A stretch of DNA of 64,000 nucleotides from an uncultured Ignavibacteria bacterium (GCA_964593585.1 CAZQIZ010000005.1:42859-106858), one strand, 5' to 3'; counted from the stretch's first letter, positions 29,863 through 42,281 are shown. The notes: generated by a model from the sequence alone, not told the origin. Translations and numbers: made by a program.

Positions 29863-30825
29863 ATGACCCTCCTCGACCGCTTCTTTGCCGGCGACCGTGT
29901 GGCTTTGGCCCGCATCATCACCCATGTCGAAAACCGTGCCCCCGGCTACCACGAGGTGCTCTCGCGCATCTTTGCGCACCGCCATGGCGCCTATCGGGTC
30001 GGGTTGACCGGCCCGCCCGGCGCCGGAAAATCGTCGCTGGTCAACCAGCTGGCGCTGATGCTGGCCGGCGAGGGGCACAATGTCGGGGTGATCGCGGTCG
30101 ATCCCTCCAGCCCGTTTACCGGCGGCGCGCTTCTGGGTGACCGGGTGCGCATGAAGTCGCTCTATGGCATCGAGAATGTCTTCATCCGCAGCATGGCCAC
30201 ACGCGGTTCCTCCGGCGGGCTGGCCGCCGCCACGAAAGATGTCTGTGTGGTCATGGAAGGTTTCGGCTTCGACATCGTGTTGATCGAAACTGTCGGCGTC
30301 GGCCAGATCGAACTCGACATCGCCGCCGTCTGCGACACCGTGGCCGTGGTCTTCGTGCCCGAATCGGGCGATGCCATCCAGGCGATGAAATCGGGCCTGA
30401 TGGAAATCGCCGATGTCTTCTGCCTGAACAAGAGCGACCGTCCCGGTTCCGATCGCATCAAGGCCGAACTGGAATCTATCCTTGAAGTGCGCCGCGAGGT
30501 CCGCAAGTCGCTGGGCACATTCTCCGATTGGCACCCGCCGGTGACAATGTCGGTGGCGACCTCGGGGCAGGGGATTCCCGCGCTCTGGGACTCCATCCAG
30601 AAGCACCGTGCCTACCGGGAGCAACGCGACCCGGCCGGGCATTTGCGGCTGCGTGTGCGTTCCGATCTCATCCTGGCGCTGCTTGAGCTGGCGCGTCGCG
30701 AGCTGGATGCCGACCTGCTCGAATCGCCGCGACTCGAGCAGGCGGTCGATCAGATTGTTTCCCGCCACGCCGACCCGTACACGATGGCGCAGAAGCTCTT
30801 CGCCGACTGGCGCGTTCGGGCATAA
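29863..30825 (+). CDS. meaB: MeaB/ArgK G-protein chaperone of B12 mutases
   Basis: GPPGAGKSS, VDPSSPFTGGALLGDRVRM, ETVGVGQ, NKSD. Confidence 0.96.
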   Translation: MTLLDRFFAGDRVALARIITHVENRAPGYHEVLSRIFAHRHGAYRVGLTGPPGAGKSSLVNQLALMLAGEGHNVGVIAVDPSSPFTGGALLGDRVRMKSLYGIENVFIRSMATRGSSGGLAAATKDVCVVMEGFGFDIVLIETVGVGQIELDIAAVCDTVAVVFVPESGDAIQAMKSGLMEIADVFCLNKSDRPGSDRIKAELESILEVRREVRKSLGTFSDWHPPVTMSVATSGQGIPALWDSIQKHRAYREQRDPAGHLRLRVRSDLILALLELARRELDADLLESPRLEQAVDQIVSRHADPYTMAQKLFADWRVRA

Positions 30826-30982
30826 CGCGGTAGCCGCCGAGTGTGCCGCCGCCGGCAACAATATGACAGCCGCGGCGGTATAAACCATTGGACAACATGG
30901 CCCAAGGGGACCATATTTATTCGGTTCAGTTCCGCGCTCGCGTGCGTCGATCTACCCCGAAAAGACAGAGGATGAATCACCC

Positions 30983-32698
<1,716 letters not shown>

Positions 32699-32705
32699 GT
32701 CCTCC

Positions 32706-32785
32706 GTGGCAGCCACAAGTCTGCCGCCCACTTGCCGTCGCACATCCCCTCTCCCCGGAAGGGGAAGAGGGTGGGGTTGTGAGGG
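32706..32785. repeat. REP-like palindromes after the mutase gene
   Basis: GTGGCAGCCACAAGTCTGCCGCCCAC and CCCCTCTCCCC-GGAA-GGGGAAGAGGG-TGGGGTTGTGAGGGG. Confidence 0.55.
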
Positions 32786-32823
32786 GCTAAGACTGACGAT
32801 TTAATTGAAGCCGAACTGACGTG

Positions 32824-33570
32824 ATGGATCAACTGACCTCATACGCATTCTACGGCGGACTGGCGCTGGCGGTCATCGCCTGGGCCATCCACTTCGCCTA
32901 CCATCGCGGGCGCAAGCGAGGAGTCTCCGAGGCCGAGGGGTCGATGGCCGATCTGCCCGAGGTCAAGTGGCTCAACGGTGAGGATTCGCCCACCGGCCGG
33001 CGCTGTCTGGACTGCCGCGCTTACGCCTTAGGCGTTCAGTTGGTCACGCAGGACAAGGAAGCCCTCGAACGATTCAGCGAGAACTGCGCCTCCGACGGCA
33101 GCGAGATTGAGGGGAAGTCGCCCGACAACGCCTGGCTGGTCGCGGTCGACTGGAGTTTTGATTTCGAGCAGGCCGAAGCGATCACCGGGGGGATGCGTCC
33201 GCAGGTCGCCGAAGACATGTGGATGATCGACTGCATCGGCGCGCGCATCTACTTCCGCCGGAGCTGGTCCGGGCAACTGGTCTTCATGTCCAATTTCTCG
33301 CGTATACCGTCGGCTGGCGCCCGGATCACGCGTCTCTGGGTTCCGGGCGTAGAGCCGTTCGACCAGCAGACTCCCGAGTATCTGGCCGCGTATGTGCGCC
33401 ATCTGGTCGACACGCATTTGTTGGGCACCCTGACACCCTTCCCGATTCCGCTCGATTTTTCCGGCGACGATGAGAAGATTGCCCAGTTCGTCTTCCACTC
33501 CGTCGGACGGCGCGGCTGGCTGGCGGAGTACTTCAAACCCGACGAGCATGCCAAGGACATACACGAGTAG
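32824..33570 (+). CDS. Membrane-anchored hypothetical protein
   Basis: N-terminal TM; CLDCRAY motif; C-terminal [10 protein letters not shown]...[13 protein letters not shown] segment; normal codon usage. Confidence 0.75.
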
Positions 33571-33574
33571 CCCT

Positions 33575-33988
33575 ATGCAGAAAATCCGCATCCTCCTCGC
33601 CAAGCCCGGCCTCGATGGCCATGATCGCGGCATCAAGGTGATCGCCGCCGCCCTCCGTGACGCCGGCTTTGAAGTGATCTACACCGGCCTGCGCCAGACC
33701 CCCGAACGCATCGTCGAAGCCGCCATCCAGGAGGATGTCGACTTCATCGGCATGTCGATTCTCTCCGGGGCGCACATGACGCTTTTCCCCGAAGTCCAGC
33801 GCCTGCTGAAGGAATGCGGCGCCGCCGACATTCACCTCTTCGGCGGCGGGATCATTCCCGACCAGGAAGCGGCGGAACTCGAGCGGCAGGGGATCGGCAA
33901 GTTGTTCGGGCCGGGGACCACCACGCAGGACATCATCGCCTATATCAAGAAGGTCGCCGCCGGGCGCAAACCCGAATCGGTGATGTAG
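33575..33988 (+). CDS. Cobalamin-binding small subunit of acyl-CoA mutase
   Basis: [11 protein letters not shown] (DxHxxG), [30 protein letters not shown]. Confidence 0.96.
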
Positions 33989-34003: not shown

Positions 34004-36751
34004 TTACGTCTCGGCGAGGATGGCCACCGCCTCGCCGAGGTCGGCGTTCATCAGCAAATCCAATGTGTGACCGCCCGAGGCGCGGCGGACATCGATGAGA
34101 CGCACCGTTCCGGCCAGGCGCTCGTAGTCGGGCAGCACCTTGGTGAGGAAGTTCTGCGAGCCGGTGAAGAATTCCTCTTTCCAGGCGTTGTCGGGTTCAT
34201 CCGGGTACAGCGGCAGGTAGTGGATCCCGGCTTCGACAAGGTCTTGGAAGAAATGGGTGCCGTAGGAGACCTCCGGCACATAGTCGCCGGTGCGGCGCGC
34301 GATTTCGATCAGCGCCGCGGTGTTGTTGATGTCGGAATAGGTGACGCTGACGCCCAGACGGATGTCGCCGCGGCTGCCCCAGCGGCCCGGTCCGATCAGG
34401 ATGAACTTGCGGCGGGGGAGACGCTCGTTGAGCATGCCGACCACCCGCCCGACCGCCAACAAGTCGCTGCGATCCGACAGCCGCTGGTATTGCTGCGGAT
34501 CCACGTAGACAATATGGGTGATCCCGTTGATCTGACCGTTGGGCACATGGCGCCGCGCCGAGAAAATCACCCTGCCGGGCGCGATATCCTTGGGGATTTC
34601 GGCCGCGGTGAACGCCGCCGGGGAACTCTGCGCCCGGCATTGCAGGATGTAGAGGTCCTTGCCGTCGGAGGCGAACTCGATGTCGATCGGCGTTCCGATC
34701 ACTTCTTCCAGCGTGCGCAGGGTCGCGCCGATGCGGCGGACGAAGTCGGAGCGTTCGCTTAAGCCAAGAAAAGTGACGGCGAAGTCTCCCTGGCTGATGT
34801 CGACATGGAAACCGGGCGGACGCAGCATCCCGGCCGGGTCGACGATCGACACGATCTGGTCGAAGGCGGGAATGTCGTCGGCATAGCGACGAAACAGCGG
34901 CGCCAGGGGCACAGTCTCGAAGGAGTTGGATTCGAGGTTGATCAAGTCGATGTGCTTCGGCGAATAGCGCAGCGCCTCATCGACCGAGACATTGGCGCGG
35001 ATGCGCGGCTGGCCGGGAGCGATCAGAATCGGGTAGTCGTCGCTGAGACGGTCCACTGCGCGGGTTCCCAGCCCCGGCACGATGCGGACCAGTCCGTCCT
35101 CGCGCCGGATGCGCGGCGACCAGCGGAATTCGTTGCGGCTGAAGGCCACCCCCGCATAGGCGGGCAGGAAGTAGGGCCCGATCTTTGTCCCGACCACCTC
35201 CTGGAGAATGATCCCCATCTCCTCGGAGAAATCGATCAGCCCGCGCTCGATCCGGTACTCGATCGGATCGGGGCCGAACGTGGACGCATAGACTTCGGCG
35301 ATCGCATCGGTGAGCGCTTTCATCCGCTCCTGCTTGGTGCCCTGGTTGGCCAGAAACAGACTCTTGTACTTGCCGGCGAAGGCCGCCCCCATCCGGTCTT
35401 CCAAAAGACTCGAACTGCGCACGATCAGCGGCTTGTCGCCGAAATCATCCAGCGCCATCGACAACCCCTTGAGCACATCGGGCGGGAAGGGCGATTGGCG
35501 GAACAACTGGACCACGTGCGGGTACTCCTGGCGAATCTGATCGAGGTCCTTGTACTTCTGCTCGACCAGGTCATCGAGATCATTGTAGTGCATGAAATGG
35601 AGGATCAGATCCGACGTCAGATGCCAGGTCTTGGGAATGCGGATGCCCGCCAGCAGGCCCGTTGGATCCGGCGAACGCTTCAGGATGCCGGCGGCCAGGT
35701 AGAGCCCCGCGCTCTTGCCGCCGAGACGACCATGGCTGTCGGTCGAGAAGACCAGCCGCGAAAGAAGGTCATGGAAATCCGCTAACTCCATGTAGCGCTT
35801 GGCGCAGTTGATGTACTCCAACTGTTCTGAGAGGAAACGCCGGATCAGCGCCACCTCGACCCCGCGCTTGGTCGTCGAGGATTCCGACGGCGCCGGGGAG
35901 GCCAGCAACTGGTACCGACGGATCGCGTCGGCCACCGCCGGCAACGGGACCTGCCGGCTGATGATCATCGACAAGACGCTCAGTTTGTCTTCCTGGATCC
36001 AGCGGCGCAGATCGGCGAGCAGCTCTTCCTCGGGCTGGTAACGCGCCGCGATCGCAAACAATTCGTCGCTCATCTCGCTTAAGCGGTGCGGCGAGGGAAC
36101 CGCGCGCTGCGGGCGGTTGGGATCGTCATCGGCGGTGGCCTCCGTGCCGGCCTGCAGACGGCGGCGCAGCTCGTCGGCCTCGGGAATACCGGCCAATGCC
36201 AGACGTGTCAGCATGCGACGGCAGACGCGCAGGTGCAGATCGCGGTCGGTCTGCCGCAAGAGTTCGAGCACCACATGCCACTCCGGCTGCGTTTGCGCGG
36301 AGGCCGTGGGCGCCGTGTCGGCCCCGGCGGCCGTGCGCCGCGCCTCCCGGTGTCCAAGATGCTGCCCCAGCCGCTCGGCGATCACCTGCAGCAGCCGCGA
36401 CTCCTCCGGCAGAAACGGCGCGTCCTCCGTCCCCGGCGCGGACTGCATGTAGAAGATTTGCAGCGCGCCGGCCGGACGACCGTTGATCAGGATTGGCGCT
36501 TCCAGTTTCCATGGCGTGTCATCGAACTCGCGATCCTGATAGGTCTGCTTGTCCAGCACAACACGCGCGCGGCACAGGTCGGGGAATTGCCACCCGGCCG
36601 GGATGGTCTTCACCAACCGCCGGCAGATCCCGGCGGCGTCCAATTCATCATGCCGCAGGATCTCCTCGACGTCATACAGGCAGTTGAGTTCCTTGGCCCG
36701 CTCGCGCAGGGCATCCAGCAGTCGTTCTGTCGAAGGATTGGGGTCGCTCAT
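34004..36751 (-). CDS. GAF-like + PEP/pyruvate-binding (PPDK_N ATP-grasp) protein lacking a pyruvate-binding barrel
   Basis: N-terminal RERAKELNCLY sensory-type region; LGGKSAG, PLIVRSSSLLED, FAGKYKS, YILQCR; C-terminal GPGRWGS...SYGTHFFQDL. Confidence 0.85.
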   Translation of the reverse strand: MSDPNPSTERLLDALRERAKELNCLYDVEEILRHDELDAAGICRRLVKTIPAGWQFPDLCRARVVLDKQTYQDREFDDTPWKLEAPILINGRPAGALQIFYMQSAPGTEDAPFLPEESRLLQVIAERLGQHLGHREARRTAAGADTAPTASAQTQPEWHVVLELLRQTDRDLHLRVCRRMLTRLALAGIPEADELRRRLQAGTEATADDDPNRPQRAVPSPHRLSEMSDELFAIAARYQPEEELLADLRRWIQEDKLSVLSMIISRQVPLPAVADAIRRYQLLASPAPSESSTTKRGVEVALIRRFLSEQLEYINCAKRYMELADFHDLLSRLVFSTDSHGRLGGKSAGLYLAAGILKRSPDPTGLLAGIRIPKTWHLTSDLILHFMHYNDLDDLVEQKYKDLDQIRQEYPHVVQLFRQSPFPPDVLKGLSMALDDFGDKPLIVRSSSLLEDRMGAAFAGKYKSLFLANQGTKQERMKALTDAIAEVYASTFGPDPIEYRIERGLIDFSEEMGIILQEVVGTKIGPYFLPAYAGVAFSRNEFRWSPRIRREDGLVRIVPGLGTRAVDRLSDDYPILIAPGQPRIRANVSVDEALRYSPKHIDLINLESNSFETVPLAPLFRRYADDIPAFDQIVSIVDPAGMLRPPGFHVDISQGDFAVTFLGLSERSDFVRRIGATLRTLEEVIGTPIDIEFASDGKDLYILQCRAQSSPAAFTAAEIPKDIAPGRVIFSARRHVPNGQINGITHIVYVDPQQYQRLSDRSDLLAVGRVVGMLNERLPRRKFILIGPGRWGSRGDIRLGVSVTYSDINNTAALIEIARRTGDYVPEVSYGTHFFQDLVEAGIHYLPLYPDEPDNAWKEEFFTGSQNFLTKVLPDYERLAGTVRLIDVRRASGGHTLDLLMNADLGEAVAILAET

Positions 36752-36932
36752 AGGGGTCGCCGACCGAATGCGACGCCGAACAATCGGCGCGCGCAAACGG
36801 CATTTCAAGATAAGAGGTCGGAACCGGCGCGGCGAGTCTCAAGCGGTGACCGGCGCGCTTTTGTCGGACACAGAAAGCGGCCGGAACGGTGGTCCCGTTC
36901 CGGCCGTGTCGTCCTGGACCTGAAAGTCGATC

Positions 36933-38219
36933 CTACACCCAGCCACGGGCGCGGCAGGCGTCGGCCACGCGGCTGATGGCGATGAAGTAGGCCGCGTCGC
37001 GCATGTACAGTTTCTTCTTACGCGCCAGCTCGCTCACCGCCAGATAGGCCGCGGTCATCGTCGTGTCCAGCTTCGCGAGGACCTCGTCCTTCTGCCAGAA
37101 GTAGTTCATGTTGCATTGGACCTGCTCGAAATAGCTGCAGGTCACGCCGCCGGCATTGGCCAGAAAATCGGGTATCACGAAGATGCCCCGCTGCGCCAGC
37201 ACCGCGTCGGCGTCCGGCGTCGTCGGGCCGTTGGCGCCCTCGGCCACCAACTTCACCTGCTTGGAAATCCGTCCGACGTTGTCGCCGGTGACCTGGTTTT
37301 CCATCGCCGACGGGAAGAGGATGTCGACATCCTGCGCGATCCAGGCGTCGCCCTCGAGGACTTCGTATCCGAGTTTCTGTGCCTGGGCCTTGTCGATGCC
37401 GCCGAACCGGTCAGTGATGCCCAAAAGCTCGTCGAGGTTGATTCCCGAATTCCGGCGGAAACCGAACGCCTTCTGCGACGATTGGTCCCAGCAAGCGACA
37501 CAGATGACCTTGCCGCCGAGTTGCTGATACAACTTGATGGCGAACTGCCCGACGTTGCCGAAGCCCTGCACGCTGGCGGTGGTCTTCTCGATTGGGATGC
37601 CCAGTTCGCGCAACGCCTCGCGCACGGTGTAAACGACGCCATAGCCGGTGGCTTCGGCGCGGCCGAGCGAGCCGCCCATGCCCACCGGTTTGCCGGTGAT
37701 CATCCCCGGGCGCCGTTCGCCGACGATTGTTTCGTATTCATCCAGCATCCACAGCATGTGCTGGGCGTTGGTCATGACATCGGGCGCCGGCACATCGCGA
37801 TTCGGTCCGACGTCGTGGGCCATCTGACGCATCCAGCCGCGGCAAATGCGCTCCTGCTCGCGGTCGGACAGATGATGGGGATCGCAGATCACGCCGCCCT
37901 TGCTGCCGCCCAACGGGATATTGACCACCGCGCACTTCCATGTCATCCACATCGACAGCGCGCGCACCGTGTCGATTGTCTCATGCGGATGGAAGCGCAG
38001 TCCGCCCTTGCCCGGGCCGCGCGCGTCGTTGTGCTGCACCCGGAATCCCTTGAAGACCCGCACCGTGCCGTCGTCCATGCGCACCGGAATGCTGAAGTGG
38101 TACTCGCGCAACGGCTCGCGCAACAGCGCGCGGGTGGACGCGTCCAGCCCCAGGGCGTCGGCGGCCTTGTCGAATTGCGCCTGCGCCATGGCGAACGCGT
38201 TGAATGGCTTTGTGCTCAT
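36933..38219 (-). CDS. gdhA: Glu/Leu/Phe/Val dehydrogenase (glutamate dehydrogenase-like)
   Basis: GPGKGGLRFHP, MTWKCAV, GGSKGG, DVPAPDV, ITGKP, QGFGNVG, EGANGP, ANAGGVTCSYFE. Confidence 0.95.
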   Translation of the reverse strand: MSTKPFNAFAMAQAQFDKAADALGLDASTRALLREPLREYHFSIPVRMDDGTVRVFKGFRVQHNDARGPGKGGLRFHPHETIDTVRALSMWMTWKCAVVNIPLGGSKGGVICDPHHLSDREQERICRGWMRQMAHDVGPNRDVPAPDVMTNAQHMLWMLDEYETIVGERRPGMITGKPVGMGGSLGRAEATGYGVVYTVREALRELGIPIEKTTASVQGFGNVGQFAIKLYQQLGGKVICVACWDQSSQKAFGFRRNSGINLDELLGITDRFGGIDKAQAQKLGYEVLEGDAWIAQDVDILFPSAMENQVTGDNVGRISKQVKLVAEGANGPTTPDADAVLAQRGIFVIPDFLANAGGVTCSYFEQVQCNMNYFWQKDEVLAKLDTTMTAAYLAVSELARKKKLYMRDAAYFIAISRVADACRARGWV

Positions 38220-38635: not shown

Positions 38636-39799
38636 ATGTATCGTTTCAACGTCGATGACCGCCAGCAGCCGATCCGCGATATGGTCCGCGCCTTCGCGGA
38701 AAAGGAAATCACGCCCGTCGCGGCCGCACTCGATCGTATGCCCGATCCCATCAAGTTCCCGGTTGACTACTACCGCAAGCTCGCCAAACAGGGCTTCATC
38801 GGATTCCCGCTGCCCAAGGAGTATGGCGGCACCGGTCATTCCTCGATCGAATACTGCACCCTTTGCGAAGAACTGACCTTCTGGGATCCTCCGACCTGCC
38901 TGTTGGCGGCCGTCGCCGTGCTGGCGACCGAGCCGATCTGGCACTTCGCCAATGAGGAACAAAAGAAGAAGTACATCCCCCGCATCGTGACCGGCGAGAT
39001 CATTCCCGCTTTCGCGCTGACCGAGCCCAACGCCGGCTCCGACGCGGCCAATCAGAGCACCGAGGCGGTGCTCGACAACGGCGAGTGGGTCATCAACGGC
39101 GAGAAGATCTTCATCATGCACGGCGACGTGGCCAACCTCTACGTCGTCTTCGGCAAGATCAACGAGCCGGGCGTGCGCCACAAAATTTCCGCCTGGATCG
39201 TCGAGGACAACGGCCACAACGGCATCCGCAAGGAAGTGCTCCAATACAAGATGGGCATGCGCGCGGCGACCACCGGACGCGTCTGGTTCAACAACACGCG
39301 CGTGCCGCAGTCGGCCCTGCTGGGCGAAGTCGACAAGGGCTTCCGCTACGCGATGGCGACGCTCGATTCGGCCCGCATCGGGGTCGCGGCGCAGGGGTTG
39401 GGCATCGCCGAGCGCGCGCTCGAGGAGTCGATCAACTACGCCAAGTCGCGCAAGGTCTTCGGCGAGCCGTTGGCCTCGAAGCAGGCGATCCAGTGGATGA
39501 TCGCCGACATGCAGACGCGCACCGAAGCCGCCCGCGGGTTGGCCTACCGCGCCGCCATGCTCCAGGATAAGGGCGCCAAGTTCGGGCTGGAGGCCTCGAT
39601 GGCGAAGTTGTACTGCACCGAGACCGCCAACTTCTGCGTCGATCGCGCCATGCAGATCCACGCCGGCTACGGGTACATCGGTGAGTTCTCGATGATCGAG
39701 AAATTGTATCGCGACCAGCGGATCACCGAAATCTATGAAGGCACGTCGGAAATCCAGCGCCTGGTCATCGCCGCCGCGATGCTGCGCGATCCGGCGTAG
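38636..39799 (+). CDS. Acyl-CoA dehydrogenase 1
   Basis: FALTEPNAGSDA, NGEKIFI, KMGMRA, RKVFG, ITEIYEGTSEIQR. Confidence 0.95.
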   Translation: MYRFNVDDRQQPIRDMVRAFAEKEITPVAAALDRMPDPIKFPVDYYRKLAKQGFIGFPLPKEYGGTGHSSIEYCTLCEELTFWDPPTCLLAAVAVLATEPIWHFANEEQKKKYIPRIVTGEIIPAFALTEPNAGSDAANQSTEAVLDNGEWVINGEKIFIMHGDVANLYVVFGKINEPGVRHKISAWIVEDNGHNGIRKEVLQYKMGMRAATTGRVWFNNTRVPQSALLGEVDKGFRYAMATLDSARIGVAAQGLGIAERALEESINYAKSRKVFGEPLASKQAIQWMIADMQTRTEAARGLAYRAAMLQDKGAKFGLEASMAKLYCTETANFCVDRAMQIHAGYGYIGEFSMIEKLYRDQRITEIYEGTSEIQRLVIAAAMLRDPA

Positions 39800-39816
39800 C
39801 GGTCAGTGAGGTTGCT

Positions 39817-40704
39817 ATGACGGCGGAGGCCGGTCCACAGCTGCAGTCGATCCGTCTGGGCGATTGGGAAGTCGCCGGGTTTGTCGAACGCCGCTTCGCG
39901 CTCGACGGCGGCACCATGTTCGGCGTCGTGCCGCGCATGATGTGGCAGAAGCTGATCCCGCCCGACGACGAAAACCGCGTGCCGCTGCAGGCCAATCTGT
40001 TCGTGGTCAAGACCGGCACGGCCATGGTCCTGCTCGACGCCGGTCTCGGCGACGCCCTCTCGAAATTCGATACCCGCCTCTACGATCCCCGCGGGCCGTC
40101 GCGGATCAACGAATCGCTGGCGGCCCTCGGCGTTCATCCCACGGAAGTGACGCACGTTATCTTCACGCACCTGCATACCGATCACTCCAACGGCGCCTTC
40201 GCCGGCGATCCCGATGCCCCGCTCCTCCGTTTCCCAAACGCCGACTTCTTTGTCCAGCGCGACGAGTGGGAAGACGCGACCCACCCCGACGAACGCACCA
40301 GTGCCGTCTACATTCAGCATCGCCTGCGCGCGCTGGAGGACTCGGGCCAGTTGCACCTGCTGGATGGCGACATCGACATCATCCCCGGCATTCGTGTGGT
40401 GAAGACGGGCGGGCACACCCGCGGTCATCAGGGCGTGCGCGTGACACGCGGCGACGATCGCTTCTTCTACTACGCCGATATCATCCCGTCGCGCTTCCAT
40501 CTCAAGGGCGCCTATGTCGCGGCCGTCGACATGTTTCCGATGGACACGATGAAGGCCAAAAAGAAACTGCTGGCCGACGCGCTCGATCCGCGCACGATCA
40601 TCGGCTTTGACCACGACACGACGATCATGTTCGGACGTCTGGTACAGAAAGAGAAATGGCTGGACGTCGAGCCTATTCCGGGTTCATCCAATCCCAGCGC
40701 GTGA
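39817..40704 (+). CDS. Metallo-beta-lactamase-fold hydrolase (YtnP-like)
   Basis: [30 protein letters not shown]. Confidence 0.92.
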
Positions 40705-40730
40705 CATTCTTCCGAATGGGAGTCATACCC

Positions 40731-42281
40731 ATGAGCAAACCCACACCGATCGAACGGCTTCACCAGATGCGGGCGCTGGCGGCGGAGCCCGGCGGCGCGC
40801 CGCGCGCCGCGGCGCAGCGCGCCAAAGGCAAATTGCTGGCCCGCGAACGGCTCGAGATCCTCCTCGATGAAGGCAGCTTCGAAGAGCTCGATCGGTTTGT
40901 CACCCACCGCTCCACCGATTTCGGCCTGGCCGACCAGCGCCCCTTGGGCGATGGGGTCGTGACCGGCTCGGGACGGATCGAGGGACGGCCCGTCTATGTC
41001 TTCAGTCAGGATTTCACCGTCTTCGGCGGCACCCTGGCCGAAGGTCACGCGCGGAAAATCTGCAAGATCATGGACATGGCGCTGAAGACCGGCGTGCCGG
41101 TCATCGGCCTCAATGATTCCGGCGGCGCACGCATTCAGGAAGGCGTGGTCTCGCTCGGCGGTTACGCCGACATCTTTCTGCGCAACACTCTTTGTTCGGG
41201 GGTCATCCCGCAGATCTCACTCATCATGGGCCCTTGCGCCGGCGGCGCGGTCTACTCGCCGGCAATCACCGACTTCATTCTGATGGTGCGCGGCACCTCC
41301 TACATGTTTGTGACCGGGCCGAATGTCGTGAAAACCGTCACCCATGAGGAAATCGATTTCGAGGGACTCGGCGGCGCGCAGGTGTGCGCCGAAAAAAGCG
41401 GCATCGCCCACATGGTCGCCGACAACGACGCCGAGGTCCTGCTCCTGACGCGCAAGTTGTTCAGTTTCCTGCCGCAGAACAACCTCGACACGCCGCCACG
41501 CCGCAAGTCCGATGATCCGCCCGACCGCGCCGACGCCGAACTCGACAACGTCGTGCCGCTGGATCCCAACAAGCCCTACGACATCAAGGAAGTCATCACC
41601 CGCGTGGTCGATGACGGCGAGTTCCTCGAGATCCAGCCAGATTACGCGGGCAACATCGTGGTGGGCTATGCCCGCCTGGCCGGACGCGCCGTCGGCATCG
41701 TTGCGAATCAGCCCGCCGTCCTCGCCGGTGTGCTCGACATCGCCTCGTCGATCAAGGGCGCGCGCTTTGTGCGCACCTGCGACGCCTTCAACATCCCGCT
41801 GGTCGTCTTCGAAGACGTCCCTGGGTTCCTGCCGGGCGTCTCCCAGGAGCACGGCGGGATTATCAAGCACGGCGCCAAGCTGCTGTTTGCCTTCTGCGAG
41901 GCGACGGTGCCCAAGGTCACCGTGATCACCCGCAAGGCCTATGGCGGCGCCTACGATGTCATGAACTCGAAGCATGTGCGCGGCGATTACAACGTCGCCT
42001 GGCCGACGGCCGAAATCGCGGTCATGGGCCCCAAGGGCGCCGCCGAGATCATCTTTCGCAAGGAAATCGCCGCGGCCAAAGACCCCGCGGCCGAGACCGA
42101 GCGCCTGGCCGAAGAGTACCGCGCCAAGTTCGCCAACCCGTATGTCGCGGCCCAGTATGGCTACATCGATGACGTCATCGAGCCGCGGGAGACCCGGTCA
42201 CGCCTGATTCGCGCCCTGGATATCATCGAAACCAAGCGCGACCAGAATCCGCCGAAGAAGCACGGCAACATTCCGCTGTGA
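40731..42281 (+). CDS. pccB: Acyl-CoA (propionyl-CoA) carboxylase carboxyltransferase subunit
   Basis: [48 protein letters not shown]. Confidence 0.95.

What the first reader, a model, noticed from the sequence alone, without database searches (positions are those of the whole stretch)
34004..38219. GAF-like/PPDK_N protein paired with glutamate dehydrogenase: candidate new phospho-signalling system
Seen: a ~915-aa protein directly downstream of gdhA on the same strand. It has a sensory-type N-terminus (ERAKELNCLY), the ATP-grasp domain of PEP synthase/PPDK (GGKSAG, RSSSLLED, LQCR) and a C-terminal SYGTHFFQ with a His at 34253-55. It lacks the pyruvate/PEP-binding barrel and the canonical TSHAAI loop. 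Known: in PEPS/PPDK the ATP-grasp domain phosphorylates a swivel-domain His. From recall, this gene type sits beside gdhA in several anaerobic lineages and is usually mis-annotated as PEP synthase. Inference: a ligand-gated dikinase-type regulator that autophosphorylates on His and modifies or binds GDH.
Basis: partly seen in the sequence, partly recalled or inferred. Interest (0 to 1): 0.75.

Follow-up and report, generated by a model that had tools for sequence, protein, structure and literature searches.

The report
GDH-linked ATP-grasp regulator, new domain
A large, unstudied protein that keeps the ATP-using half of PEP synthase but swaps the rest for a sensor and a domain of unknown fold sits next to glutamate dehydrogenase in about 93% of the related genomes sampled, bacterial and archaeal, so it is probably an undescribed ATP-driven controller of that enzyme, though nothing here shows what it does biochemically.

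Summary
A 915-aa ORF (34004-36751, minus strand) lies 181 nt downstream of a 428-aa glutamate dehydrogenase (GDH). It carries one Pfam domain, PPDK_N (E 7e-57), with all ATP-grasp catalytic motifs intact. It has no swivel-His domain and no PEP/pyruvate barrel. The N-terminus is weakly GAF-like. The C-terminal 200 aa give a confident model with no Pfam, PDB or hhalign relative, and 13 residues, including His833, are invariant in 69/69 homologs.

The gdh linkage holds: gdh lies upstream on the same strand in 68 of 73 evaluable orthologous loci, in 5 of 6 members of a distant Thermodesulfobacteriota subfamily (the sixth sits beside GlnE), and in 3 of 3 close relatives without the C-terminal extension.

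The window carries the minimal form, gdh plus the long protein only.

Best reading: an ATP-driven post-translational regulator of GDH, analogous to VadK. His phosphorylation and any action on GDH are inferred, not shown. No prior description was found.

The parts
36933..38219 (-). gdh: 428-aa hexameric-type glutamate dehydrogenase, first gene of the pair
   Evidence: Pfam ELFV_dehydrog_N + ELFV_dehydrog. Best solved relatives are Thermococcus, Pyrococcus and Thermotoga GDH, E 1e-119.
36878..36906 (-). Terminator-like hairpin (12-bp stem, 10 G-C pairs, then CTTTCTGTGT) 27 nt after the gdh stop, inside the 181-nt spacer
   Evidence: Consensus scan and sequence. Function was not tested. The scan found 2 such sites in the region, against 3.2 expected in shuffles.
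34004..36751 (-). Target CDS, 915 aa plus stop: GAF-like sensor, helical region, PPDK-type ATP-grasp and a novel C-domain
36314..36751 (-). N-terminal GAF-like alpha/beta domain (residues 1-146) with the ERAKELNCLY helix. Cys24 and Cys60 are conserved in at least 90% of homologs, Cys43 in at least 60%.
   Evidence: Pfam GAF E 0.016. Foldseek GAF hits 3p01, 3w2z and 8jrc. Conservation.
35759..36283 (-). All-helical region (residues 157-331), no known family
   Evidence: DSSP on the AF2 model. No Pfam hit.
34607..35728 (-). PPDK_N ATP-grasp nucleotide-binding domain (residues 342-715). Catalytic motifs: GGKSAG 35705-35722, RSSSLLED 35396-35419, DIEF...LQCR 34634-34684.
   Evidence: Pfam E 6.9e-57. 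Foldseek matches RPH 5hv3 at E 3e-13, 5hv6 at TMt 0.73, PEPS 2ols and HpeI 9goj. The motifs are invariant.
34007..34603 (-). Novel C-domain (residues 717-915), an alpha/beta fold with no known relative
   Evidence: AF2 pLDDT 90.9, pTM 0.90. No PDB fold match better than E 0.06. No Pfam hit. No BFVD match.
34364..34393 (-). Invariant GPGRWGSRGD loop (residues 787-796), which follows strand 783-788
   Evidence: 69/69 invariant. Conserved as GxGRWGS in the short paralogs.
34232..34267 (-). Invariant S-Y-G-T-H-F-F-Q-D-L-V-E (residues 829-840). His833 is the codon 34253-34255 and sits at the N-cap of helix 833-841.

Best explanation
The gene encodes the minimal form of a widespread, uncharacterised family that is genetically tied to glutamate dehydrogenase. 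I read it as an ATP-driven post-translational regulator of GDH, built on the nucleotide half-reaction of PEP synthase and PPDK.

Proposed steps:
1. The N-terminal GAF-like domain, with its conserved cysteines, senses a metabolite or redox signal. This is inferred.
2. The ATP-grasp domain keeps every residue needed for the PPDK/PEPS nucleotide partial reaction, so it probably cleaves ATP. That the residues are kept is shown. That it is active is inferred.
3. The phosphoryl group goes to an acceptor in the novel C-domain, which is tethered by a flexible linker of about 20 residues. The best candidate is the invariant His833, at the N-cap of a helix in an invariant Arg/Asp/Ser/Thr/Glu-rich site. 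This is inferred.
4. The charged protein then phosphorylates the GDH hexamer or binds it, and so gates the entry of glutamate into catabolism. This rests on gene linkage only.

In most relatives the same core works together with a short PPDK_N + C-domain paralog, a C-terminal Pol-beta nucleotidyltransferase domain and a convergent metallophosphoesterase. That looks like a writer/eraser elaboration. The window organism has lost it.
For: Linkage. gdh is immediately upstream on the same strand in 68/73 evaluable loci, which span Zixibacteria, Ignavibacteria, Gemmatimonadota, Krumholzibacteriota and a Thermoplasmata archaeon. The 91 loci fall into 55 clusters at 70% identity. The linkage also holds in 5/6 members of a Thermodesulfobacteriota subfamily with a different N-terminus; the sixth lies beside GlnE. 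It holds in 3/3 close relatives that lack the extension. In the window, gdh and the target form an isolated same-strand pair flanked by opposite-strand genes.

Catalytic competence. GGK, RSSSLLED, DxEF and LQxR are invariant in 69 long forms and kept in 48 short paralogs. The nearest folds are the ATP-grasp domains of RPH, PEPS, HpeI and PPDK.

Candidate acceptor. R790, W791, S793, R794, D796, Y805, E816, S829, T832, H833, Q836, D837 and E840 are invariant in 69/69. The His is kept in paralogs that are only 27-30% identical. It sits at a helix N-cap, and the two invariant loops have lower pLDDT than the rest of a confident domain.

Regulator-like character. The protein has a sensor-type N-terminus. 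It has no substrate barrel. One relative sits next to the enzyme-modifying regulator GlnE. Relatives carry NTase and phosphoesterase modules of the kind found in covalent-modification cycles. Short and long forms are fused in single chains.

Precedent. VadK is a truncated PPDK that autophosphorylates on His and binds the neighbouring methylcitrate-cycle enzymes (PMC13400623).
Against: There is no biochemical or transcript evidence; only DNA metagenomes hold the locus.

The C-domain has no detectable homology to the phosphohistidine swivel domain by Pfam, PDB profile, hhalign or Foldseek. The only resemblance is a 9/55 His-anchored pattern.

Gene linkage fits a shared pathway or regulon as well as direct action on GDH.

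5 of 73 loci have no adjacent same-strand gdh. The terminator-like hairpin after gdh may uncouple expression of the two genes.

The role of the NTase, paralog and phosphoesterase in relatives is not explained by a simple His-kinase model.
Confidence: 0.4

Rival explanations
1. It is a small-molecule dikinase or ATP-dependent enzyme of glutamate, 2-oxoglutarate or nitrogen metabolism. Like RPH, HpeHI or phenylphosphate synthase, it would phosphorylate a metabolite, and it would sit with gdh because both act in one pathway, not because it regulates GDH.
For: Apart from VadK, every characterised PPDK_N enzyme acts on small molecules. The best structural matches are RPH and HpeI. The C-domain has an active-site-like set of invariant residues. 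Both the long and short forms keep catalytic residues. Two-component small-molecule dikinases exist (PMC12167813).
Against: No domain resembles a known substrate-binding module. No plausible phosphorylated intermediate is known at the GDH step. The N-terminal modules vary between subfamilies (GAF-like, unrelated, or absent) while the gdh linkage is kept, which is typical of interchangeable sensor inputs. The GlnE neighbour and the NTase and phosphoesterase add-ons look regulatory.
Confidence: 0.25
2. It regulates nitrogen or glutamate metabolism, but its direct target is not GDH. It might act on another enzyme or a PII-type protein, or (in the NTase-bearing forms) make a signalling nucleotide that a phosphodiesterase degrades. 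gdh would only be co-regulated with it.
For: One subfamily member sits beside GlnE, GltD-like and CPSase genes instead of gdh. Glutamate-synthase-domain genes lie next to the cassette in L098 and L099. The combination of a Pol-beta NTase, a metallophosphoesterase and a GAF-like domain recalls nucleotide second-messenger circuits.
Against: The adjacency to gdh specifically is about 93%, with gaps of 17-280 bp. That is tighter than usual for mere co-regulation. The window form has no NTase or phosphoesterase yet keeps gdh.
Confidence: 0.15
3. It is a non-covalent allosteric adaptor. It would bind ATP or AMP and a ligand and dock on GDH, as the APRT homolog does on Thermus thermophilus GDH (from my own knowledge, not checked here), with no phosphotransfer.
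For: The gene linkage fits equally well. Accessory sensor subunits for GDH are known from the literature. The canonical His domain is absent.
Against: The Mg2+ and phosphate-binding catalytic residues of the ATP-grasp are strictly invariant, as is a His/Arg/Asp-rich site in the C-domain. That argues for chemistry rather than binding alone.
Confidence: 0.1
4. It is a genuine PEP synthase, PPDK or rifampin phosphotransferase, as the public annotations say.
For: Database names such as 'pyruvate, phosphate dikinase' and 'pyruvate, water dikinase'. PPDK_N is present.
Against: PF00391 and PF02896 are absent. NCBIfam PEPS and RPH equivalogs score 21-64 bits against cut-offs of 598-1700. There is no RIF-binding or swivel domain.
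Confidence: 0.02

Closest known systems
VadK (Rv1127c) of Mycobacterium tuberculosis, a PPDK-derived regulatory histidine (di)kinase (PMC13400623)
   Same: A PPDK-type ATP-grasp that has lost the PEP/pyruvate barrel. Its gene lies beside the metabolic enzymes it is thought to control. The proposed logic is the same: ATP-dependent autophosphorylation followed by protein-protein regulation of flux.
   Different: VadK keeps the canonical central swivel domain with its catalytic His422. The window protein has an unrelated 200-aa C-domain, a GAF-like sensor and a helical region. Its relatives add a paralog, an NTase and a phosphoesterase. The partner enzyme is GDH, not methylcitrate-cycle enzymes. 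The two are not close in sequence.
Rifampin phosphotransferase (RPH-Lm; PDB 5hv1, 5hv3, 5hv6)
   Same: Best structural match for the ATP-grasp (E 3e-13; TMt 0.73 to the isolated domain). In both, the ATP-grasp is followed by a tethered C-terminal domain that carries a His.
   Different: There is no RIF-binding domain and no PEP-utilizers swivel fold. The NCBIfam RPH score is 41 bits against a cut-off of 999.
PEP synthase and pyruvate phosphate dikinase
   Same: The PPDK_N domain has all the nucleotide-site motifs (GGK, RSS..ED, DxE, LQxR).
   Different: The protein lacks both other defining domains, the phosphohistidine swivel and the PEP/pyruvate TIM barrel.
Two-component dikinases HpeHI and phenylphosphate synthase (PMC12167813)
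   Same: The ATP-grasp works with a second polypeptide. In relatives a second family member is encoded next door and is sometimes fused.
   Different: In HpeHI the partner carries the swivel and substrate domains. Here the partner is a second full ATP-grasp + C-domain protein, and the window has no partner at all.
GlnE/GlnD with glutamine synthetase, and AceK with isocitrate dehydrogenase (from my own knowledge)
   Same: Dedicated enzyme-modifying regulators of central carbon and nitrogen enzymes. Relatives of the window protein carry an NTase plus a metal phosphoesterase, which parallels the NTase + HD pair in GlnD. One relative is encoded next to glnE.
   Different: There is no sequence relationship. 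The window protein has no NTase. No modification of GDH has been shown.

Membership tests
PEP synthase / PPDK (pyruvate dikinases) | PPDK_N ATP-grasp nucleotide-binding domain with its catalytic Lys, Arg, Asp/Glu and Gln/Arg residues | tested here: met
   PF01326 E 6.9e-57. The motifs are invariant.
PEP synthase / PPDK (pyruvate dikinases) | PEP-utilizers mobile (swivel) domain with a G-G-x-T-S/C-H-A-A-I phosphohistidine loop | tested here: not met
   No PF00391 hit even at E<=10. hhalign against E. coli PpsA aligns only the tail of the ATP-grasp. The C-domain model gave no swivel-domain match among the best 50 Foldseek hits listed, and none of the 627 matches reached E 0.001.
PEP synthase / PPDK (pyruvate dikinases) | PEP/pyruvate-binding TIM barrel (PEP-utilizers_C) | tested here: not met
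   No PF02896 hit. The protein ends at residue 915, straight after the C-domain.
PEP synthase / PPDK (pyruvate dikinases) | Reaches the NCBIfam equivalog score | tested here: not met
   Best score 63.5 bits against a cut-off of 883.
Rifampin phosphotransferase | ATP-grasp, RIF-binding domain and C-terminal swivel His domain; NCBIfam NF041857 | tested here: not met
   Only the ATP-grasp matches structurally. The score is 41.4 bits against a cut-off of 999.
VadK-like PPDK-derived regulatory kinase | ATP-grasp plus the canonical central His domain, with no pyruvate domain | tested here: not met
   The ATP-grasp is present and the barrel is absent, but the canonical His domain is also absent.
VadK-like PPDK-derived regulatory kinase | ATP- and Mg-dependent autophosphorylation on His, and binding to neighbouring enzymes | not testable with these tools
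   Needs biochemistry. Only the invariance of His833 and the gene linkage are shown.
GAF domain sensors | GAF fold recognised by a profile or by structure | tested here: inconclusive
   Pfam GAF E 0.016, 16 bits against a cut-off of 22.4. Foldseek GAF hits have probability about 0.92-1.0 but E 0.24-0.38 and TMt about 0.4-0.5. The model has only 4 strands.
Pol-beta / MNT-type nucleotidyltransferase | hG[GS]x9-13Dh[DE]h motif; PF01909 | tested here: not met
   Absent from the window protein and from the whole 64-kb window. Present as an extra C-terminal domain in 78 of 84 orthologs.
Glutamate dehydrogenase (ELFV family), the upstream gene | ELFV_dehydrog_N and ELFV_dehydrog domains, close to solved hexameric GDHs | tested here: met
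   NCBIfam GdhA_Arch gives 467 bits against an equivalog cut-off of 750, so it is GDH-type but not that equivalog.
Anti-phage defence systems (PADLOC) | Match to any defence-system model | tested here: not met
   No hit for the window protein.

The most novel reading that the evidence does not exclude
The family is the writer of a previously unknown covalent-modification cycle on glutamate dehydrogenase. A sensor-gated PPDK-type ATP-grasp would load a new kind of phospho-carrier domain and modify GDH. In the full systems, a nucleotidyltransferase domain and a metallophosphoesterase would act as a second writer and an eraser. This would be a GDH counterpart of GlnE with glutamine synthetase or AceK with isocitrate dehydrogenase, spread across many anaerobic bacterial phyla and some archaea.
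Probability: 0.25. Interest if true: 0.85.

Novelty: new variant of a known kind. Interest (0 to 1): 0.7.

Why it matters
GDH sits at the junction of carbon and nitrogen metabolism. No dedicated enzyme-modifying regulator comparable to GlnE or AceK is known for bacterial or archaeal GDH, to my knowledge and in the literature searched here.

The family is large: 880 representative clusters at E<=1e-30 in a 50%-identity library. It spans several phyla of uncultured anaerobes and at least one archaeal lineage. It is uniformly mis-named PEP synthase or PPDK, which corrupts metabolic reconstructions of those MAGs. Its conserved 200-aa domain has no known fold relative.

If the model holds, it would extend the recently discovered idea of PPDK-derived regulatory kinases (VadK) from one actinobacterial lineage to a broad, mechanistically distinct system. 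It would also define a new phospho-carrier or catalytic domain.

It is directly testable. Cultured carriers exist (Desulfacinum hydrothermale, Desulfosoma caldarium; Caldithrix abyssi also appears among the homologs).

Tried and rejected
- Full-length search for homologous proteins timed out twice. Partial queries worked instead.
- I first suspected that the C-domain motif GS-x12-SDINN marked a degenerate Pol-beta NTase. I rejected this: Pfam found no NTase there, Foldseek gave no NTase match, and the genuine NTase of relatives is a separate domain further downstream.
- I tested whether the C-domain is a divergent swivel phosphohistidine domain. Pfam at E<=10 on one and then 28 members, a PDB sequence profile, hhalign against E. 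coli PpsA and Foldseek against the PDB were all negative. What remains is a His-anchored local pattern with 9/55 identities, which is a lead only.
- The BFVD fold search of the C-domain gave only non-significant, scattered calcineurin-like/Mre11 hits, all with probability below 0.45. I did not use them.
- A defence-system reading was rejected (PADLOC). A riboswitch or other RNA element around gdh was rejected (Rfam at E<=0.1).
- A co-transcription test was impossible because only DNA metagenomes hold the locus.
- I searched the 64-kb window for a short paralog, an NTase or a metallophosphoesterase. None is present.
- Seven literature searches combining GDH with PPDK_N, PEP synthase or NTase terms found no prior description.
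- I could not measure the distance from His833 to the ATP site because model coordinates are not exposed to the scripting tool.

Full report
OBSERVATION

On the minus strand, an ORF runs from 36808 (TTG) or 36751 (ATG) to the stop at 34004-34006. The ATG version, 915 aa, is the one that homologs align to from residue 1. It is also the one public gene callers chose (P0271). After a 181-nt spacer upstream lies a 428-aa ORF, 36933-38219, with both ELFV dehydrogenase domains. Its closest solved relatives are the hexameric GDHs of Thermococcus, Pyrococcus and Thermotoga, at E about 1e-119.

These are ERAKELNCLY, GGKSAG, RSSSLLED, LQCR and SYGTHFFQ, and His833 is the codon 34253-34255. On the organism's own 125-kb contig, gdh and the target are the only two genes on their strand. 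Opposite-strand genes flank them on both sides. A strong terminator-like hairpin at 36906-36878 follows the gdh stop. Its effect is untested.

ANATOMY OF THE PROTEIN

Pfam finds only PPDK_N, at residues 342-715 (E 6.9e-57). Every NCBIfam model for PEP synthase, PPDK, rifampin phosphotransferase or PigC/RedH scores 21-64 bits, against cut-offs of 500-1700.

An AlphaFold2 model built from a 69-sequence alignment has mean pLDDT 82.7 and pTM 0.70. It shows five parts:
- Residues 1-146: an alpha/beta module. Its Pfam GAF hit is sub-threshold (E 0.016). Its Foldseek hits to GAF domains are low-significance but consistent: 3p01, 3w2z and NifA GAF 8jrc, with probability about 0.92-1.0 and E 0.24-0.38. 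Cys24 and Cys60 are conserved in at least 90% of homologs.
- Residues 157-331: an all-helical region with no known family.
- Residues 342-715: the ATP-grasp. Its best structural relatives are rifampin phosphotransferase (5hv3, E 3e-13; isolated ATP-binding domain 5hv6, TMt 0.73), PEP synthase 2ols, HpeI 9goj and PPDK.
- Residues 708-727: an unstructured linker.
- Residues 717-915: a C-domain.

The nucleotide-site motifs are invariant across the alignment: G344, K346, R445-S448, E451, D452, D690, E692, Q704 and R706. By established knowledge of C. symbiosum PPDK mutagenesis, these are the residues required for the ATP partial reaction.

THE C-DOMAIN

Modelled alone, it is confident (pLDDT 90.9, pTM 0.90). 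It has no relative that I could detect:
- Pfam at E<=10 on the window sequence, and at E<=5 on 28 family members, gives nothing consistent.
- A profile search of PDB sequences gives nothing in the domain proper.
- hhalign against E. coli PpsA aligns only the tail of the ATP-grasp.
- Foldseek against the PDB gives no hit better than E 0.06 or probability 0.47.
- Foldseek against BFVD gives nothing significant.

So it is not recognisably the swivel phosphohistidine domain of the dikinases, and it is not a Pol-beta nucleotidyltransferase.

It does carry an active-site-like constellation that is invariant in 69/69 sequences: R790, W791, S793, R794 and D796 in the GPGRWGSRGD loop after a beta-strand; Y805 and E816; and S829, T832, H833, Q836, D837 and E840. 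His833 sits at the N-cap of helix 833-841. The same signatures, GxGRWGS and S-Q-G-[ST]-H-F-F, survive in 48 short paralogs that are only 27-30% identical.

Anchored on the His, the real PpsA loop and this one share V-x3-D-[MI] at -30 to -25 and H-x6-E-x-G-I. That is 9 identities in 55 positions. It is a lead and not evidence of homology.

LINKAGE TO gdh

A genome scan returned 11 loci and a metagenome scan returned 80, at 41-56% identity. They fall into 84 clusters at 90% identity and 55 at 70%. Of these, 73 have enough upstream sequence to judge:
- 26 have gdh directly upstream on the same strand, with gaps of 17-280 bp.
- 38 have gdh, then a short paralog, then the long form.
- 4 have gdh slightly farther upstream.
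- 1 has gdh divergent.
- 4 have no gdh.

That makes 68 of 73.

The lineages include Zixibacteria, Ignavibacteria/Melioribacteraceae, Gemmatimonadota, Krumholzibacteriota and a Thermoplasmata archaeon. Homolog annotations add Latescibacterota, Calditrichia, Acidobacteriota and others.

A distant subfamily of about 770 aa occurs in Thermodesulfobacteriota, including cultured Desulfacinum hydrothermale and Desulfosoma caldarium. It has an unrelated N-terminus. It is directly downstream of a GDH in 5 of 6 look-ups. The sixth lies directly downstream of glnE, next to gltD-like and carbamoyl-phosphate synthase genes.

Three of three evaluable close relatives without the C-terminal extension are also gdh-linked.

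It belongs to the PPDK_N + C-domain core rather than to any particular N-terminal module.

THE LARGER SYSTEM SEEN IN RELATIVES

Most orthologs are about 1060 aa. They carry an extra C-terminal Pol-beta/MNT-type nucleotidyltransferase domain: PF01909 with a GS...DIDL motif. It is present in 78 of 84 evaluable long forms.

In more than half of the loci, a 585-606-aa paralog made only of PPDK_N + C-domain lies between gdh and the long form. It keeps its catalytic motifs. In some genomes the short and long forms are fused into chains of 1520-1650 aa with two PPDK_N domains.

A calcineurin-like metallophosphoesterase of about 285 aa lies convergent to the long form and almost abutting it. It is present in 38 of 71 loci with enough downstream sequence:
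- 29 of 40 loci that have the short paralog,
- 3 of 19 loci where gdh directly precedes the long form,
- 0 of 5 loci whose long form lacks the extension.

All 45 paralog-type loci with an evaluable extension keep the canonical NTase motif. Several gdh-long loci keep the extension but have lost its catalytic aspartates, making them pseudo-NTases.

The window has no paralog, no NTase and no phosphoesterase anywhere in its 64 kb. The stop codon of its protein is genuine, because the convergent neighbouring gene ends 15 bp away. The window therefore holds the end-member of a reductive series: gdh plus the sensor, ATP-grasp and C-domain core.

HOW IT MOST LIKELY WORKS

Shown:
- a catalytically intact PPDK-type ATP-grasp;
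- an invariant His/Arg/Asp-rich site in a tethered novel domain;
- a sensor-like N-terminus;
- tight, cross-phylum gene linkage to gdh.

Inferred:
- the ATP-grasp (pyro)phosphorylates an acceptor in the C-domain, with His833 the best candidate;
- the N-terminal module gates this step;
- the output is phosphorylation of GDH, or phospho-dependent binding to it.

I give this about 0.4.

The closest precedent is VadK, a truncated PPDK that autophosphorylates on His422 and binds the neighbouring methylcitrate-cycle enzymes (PMC13400623). VadK keeps the canonical His domain, so the window protein is not a member of that family.

Rivals and rough weights:
- a small-molecule dikinase in glutamate or nitrogen metabolism (0.25);
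- a nitrogen-metabolism regulator whose direct target is not GDH (0.15);
- a non-covalent allosteric adaptor (0.1);
- a genuine PEPS, PPDK or RPH (0.02, excluded at the domain level).

NOVELTY

Seven full-text searches found no description of a GDH-linked PPDK_N protein. Public names are generic or wrong: 'pyruvate, phosphate dikinase' and 'PEP/pyruvate-binding domain-containing protein'. The family is large, with 880 50%-identity representatives at E<=1e-30.

I rate it a new variant of a known kind. The known kind is PPDK-type ATP-grasp phosphotransfer proteins, including regulatory derivatives. What is new is an undescribed domain, an undescribed partner enzyme and, in relatives, an undescribed multi-component architecture.

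LIMITS

- There are no transcript data and no biochemistry.
- Model coordinates could not be interrogated.
- The 80 metagenome loci are the best-scoring relatives of 598 candidates, so the linkage statistics describe the orthologous group plus the sampled subfamilies, not every PPDK_N + C-domain protein.

Noticed in passing
L002:9192-10046(-), L010:9130-9987(-) and 36 further loci; absent from the window: A calcineurin-like metallophosphoesterase of about 285 aa lies convergent to the long form and almost abuts it (gap -13 to +63 bp in 32 of 38 loci). It co-occurs with the short paralog and an intact NTase, which makes it a candidate eraser of the system.
   Followed up: partly
L002:4172-5992(+), L005:4251-6008(+), L102:3250-5004(+); fusions P0122, P0123, P0127: A short paralog made only of PPDK_N + C-domain lies between gdh and the long form in 38 of the 73 evaluable loci. 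Some genomes fuse the short and long forms into one chain of 1520-1650 aa with two ATP-grasp domains.
   Followed up: partly
L038, L040, L048, L052, L057, L074 (C-terminal extension of the long form): In loci where gdh directly precedes the long form, the NTase extension is kept but its catalytic Asp residues are replaced (for example DSKIHLL, GSPIKLA, DPIRMVF). These look like pseudo-NTases on the way to the loss seen in the window.
   Followed up: partly
window 36878-36906 (-): A strong terminator-like hairpin (12-bp stem, 10 G-C pairs, U-rich tail) lies 27 nt after the gdh stop. It could attenuate read-through into the regulator gene. The spacer in other gdh-long loci ranges from 17 to 280 bp, so the hairpin is not universal.
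   Followed up: no
L010:10233-11567, and L019, L020, L023, L031, L036, L046, L050, L055, L080: A second, divergent ELFV-family dehydrogenase (33-35% identical to the cassette GDH; 45% in L050) lies within a few kb of the cassette in about ten loci.
   Followed up: no
L096:4066-6819 (+): In one Thermodesulfobacteriota genome the family member is directly downstream of glnE (the glutamine synthetase adenylyltransferase) instead of gdh. gltD-like and carbamoyl-phosphate synthase genes are nearby.
   Followed up: no
L095:9335-9964, L098:8469-9116, L099:8484-9128: In the Thermodesulfobacteriota subfamily, a gene of about 210 aa with no Pfam match follows the PPDK_N gene on the same strand. It may be a subfamily-specific partner.
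   Followed up: no
window 36572-36574, 36623-36625, 36680-36682 (Cys60, Cys43, Cys24 of the target): The GAF-like domain has two cysteines conserved in at least 90% of homologs and a third in at least 60%. This hints at a redox, metal or cofactor-linked sensor.
   Followed up: no
window 29863-33988 and 38636-42281 (+ strand); L012: The gdh pair is embedded among methylmalonyl-CoA pathway genes: MeaB, the MCM large subunit, the B12-binding subunit, acyl-CoA dehydrogenase, carboxyltransferase, biotin carboxylase and an epimerase-type glyoxalase. This fits glutamate or amino-acid catabolism to propionate.
   Followed up: no
window 32821-33570 (+): A 249-aa ORF with no Pfam match on record is wedged between the MCM large-subunit gene and the B12-binding subunit gene.
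   Followed up: no
L104:2377-3474 (+); L101:3186-3500 (+): In L104 a TIR_2-domain gene is inserted between gdh and the long form. In L101 the NTase is a separate, overlapping 104-aa ORF, either a split gene or a frameshift, and the convergent phosphoesterase follows it.
   Followed up: no
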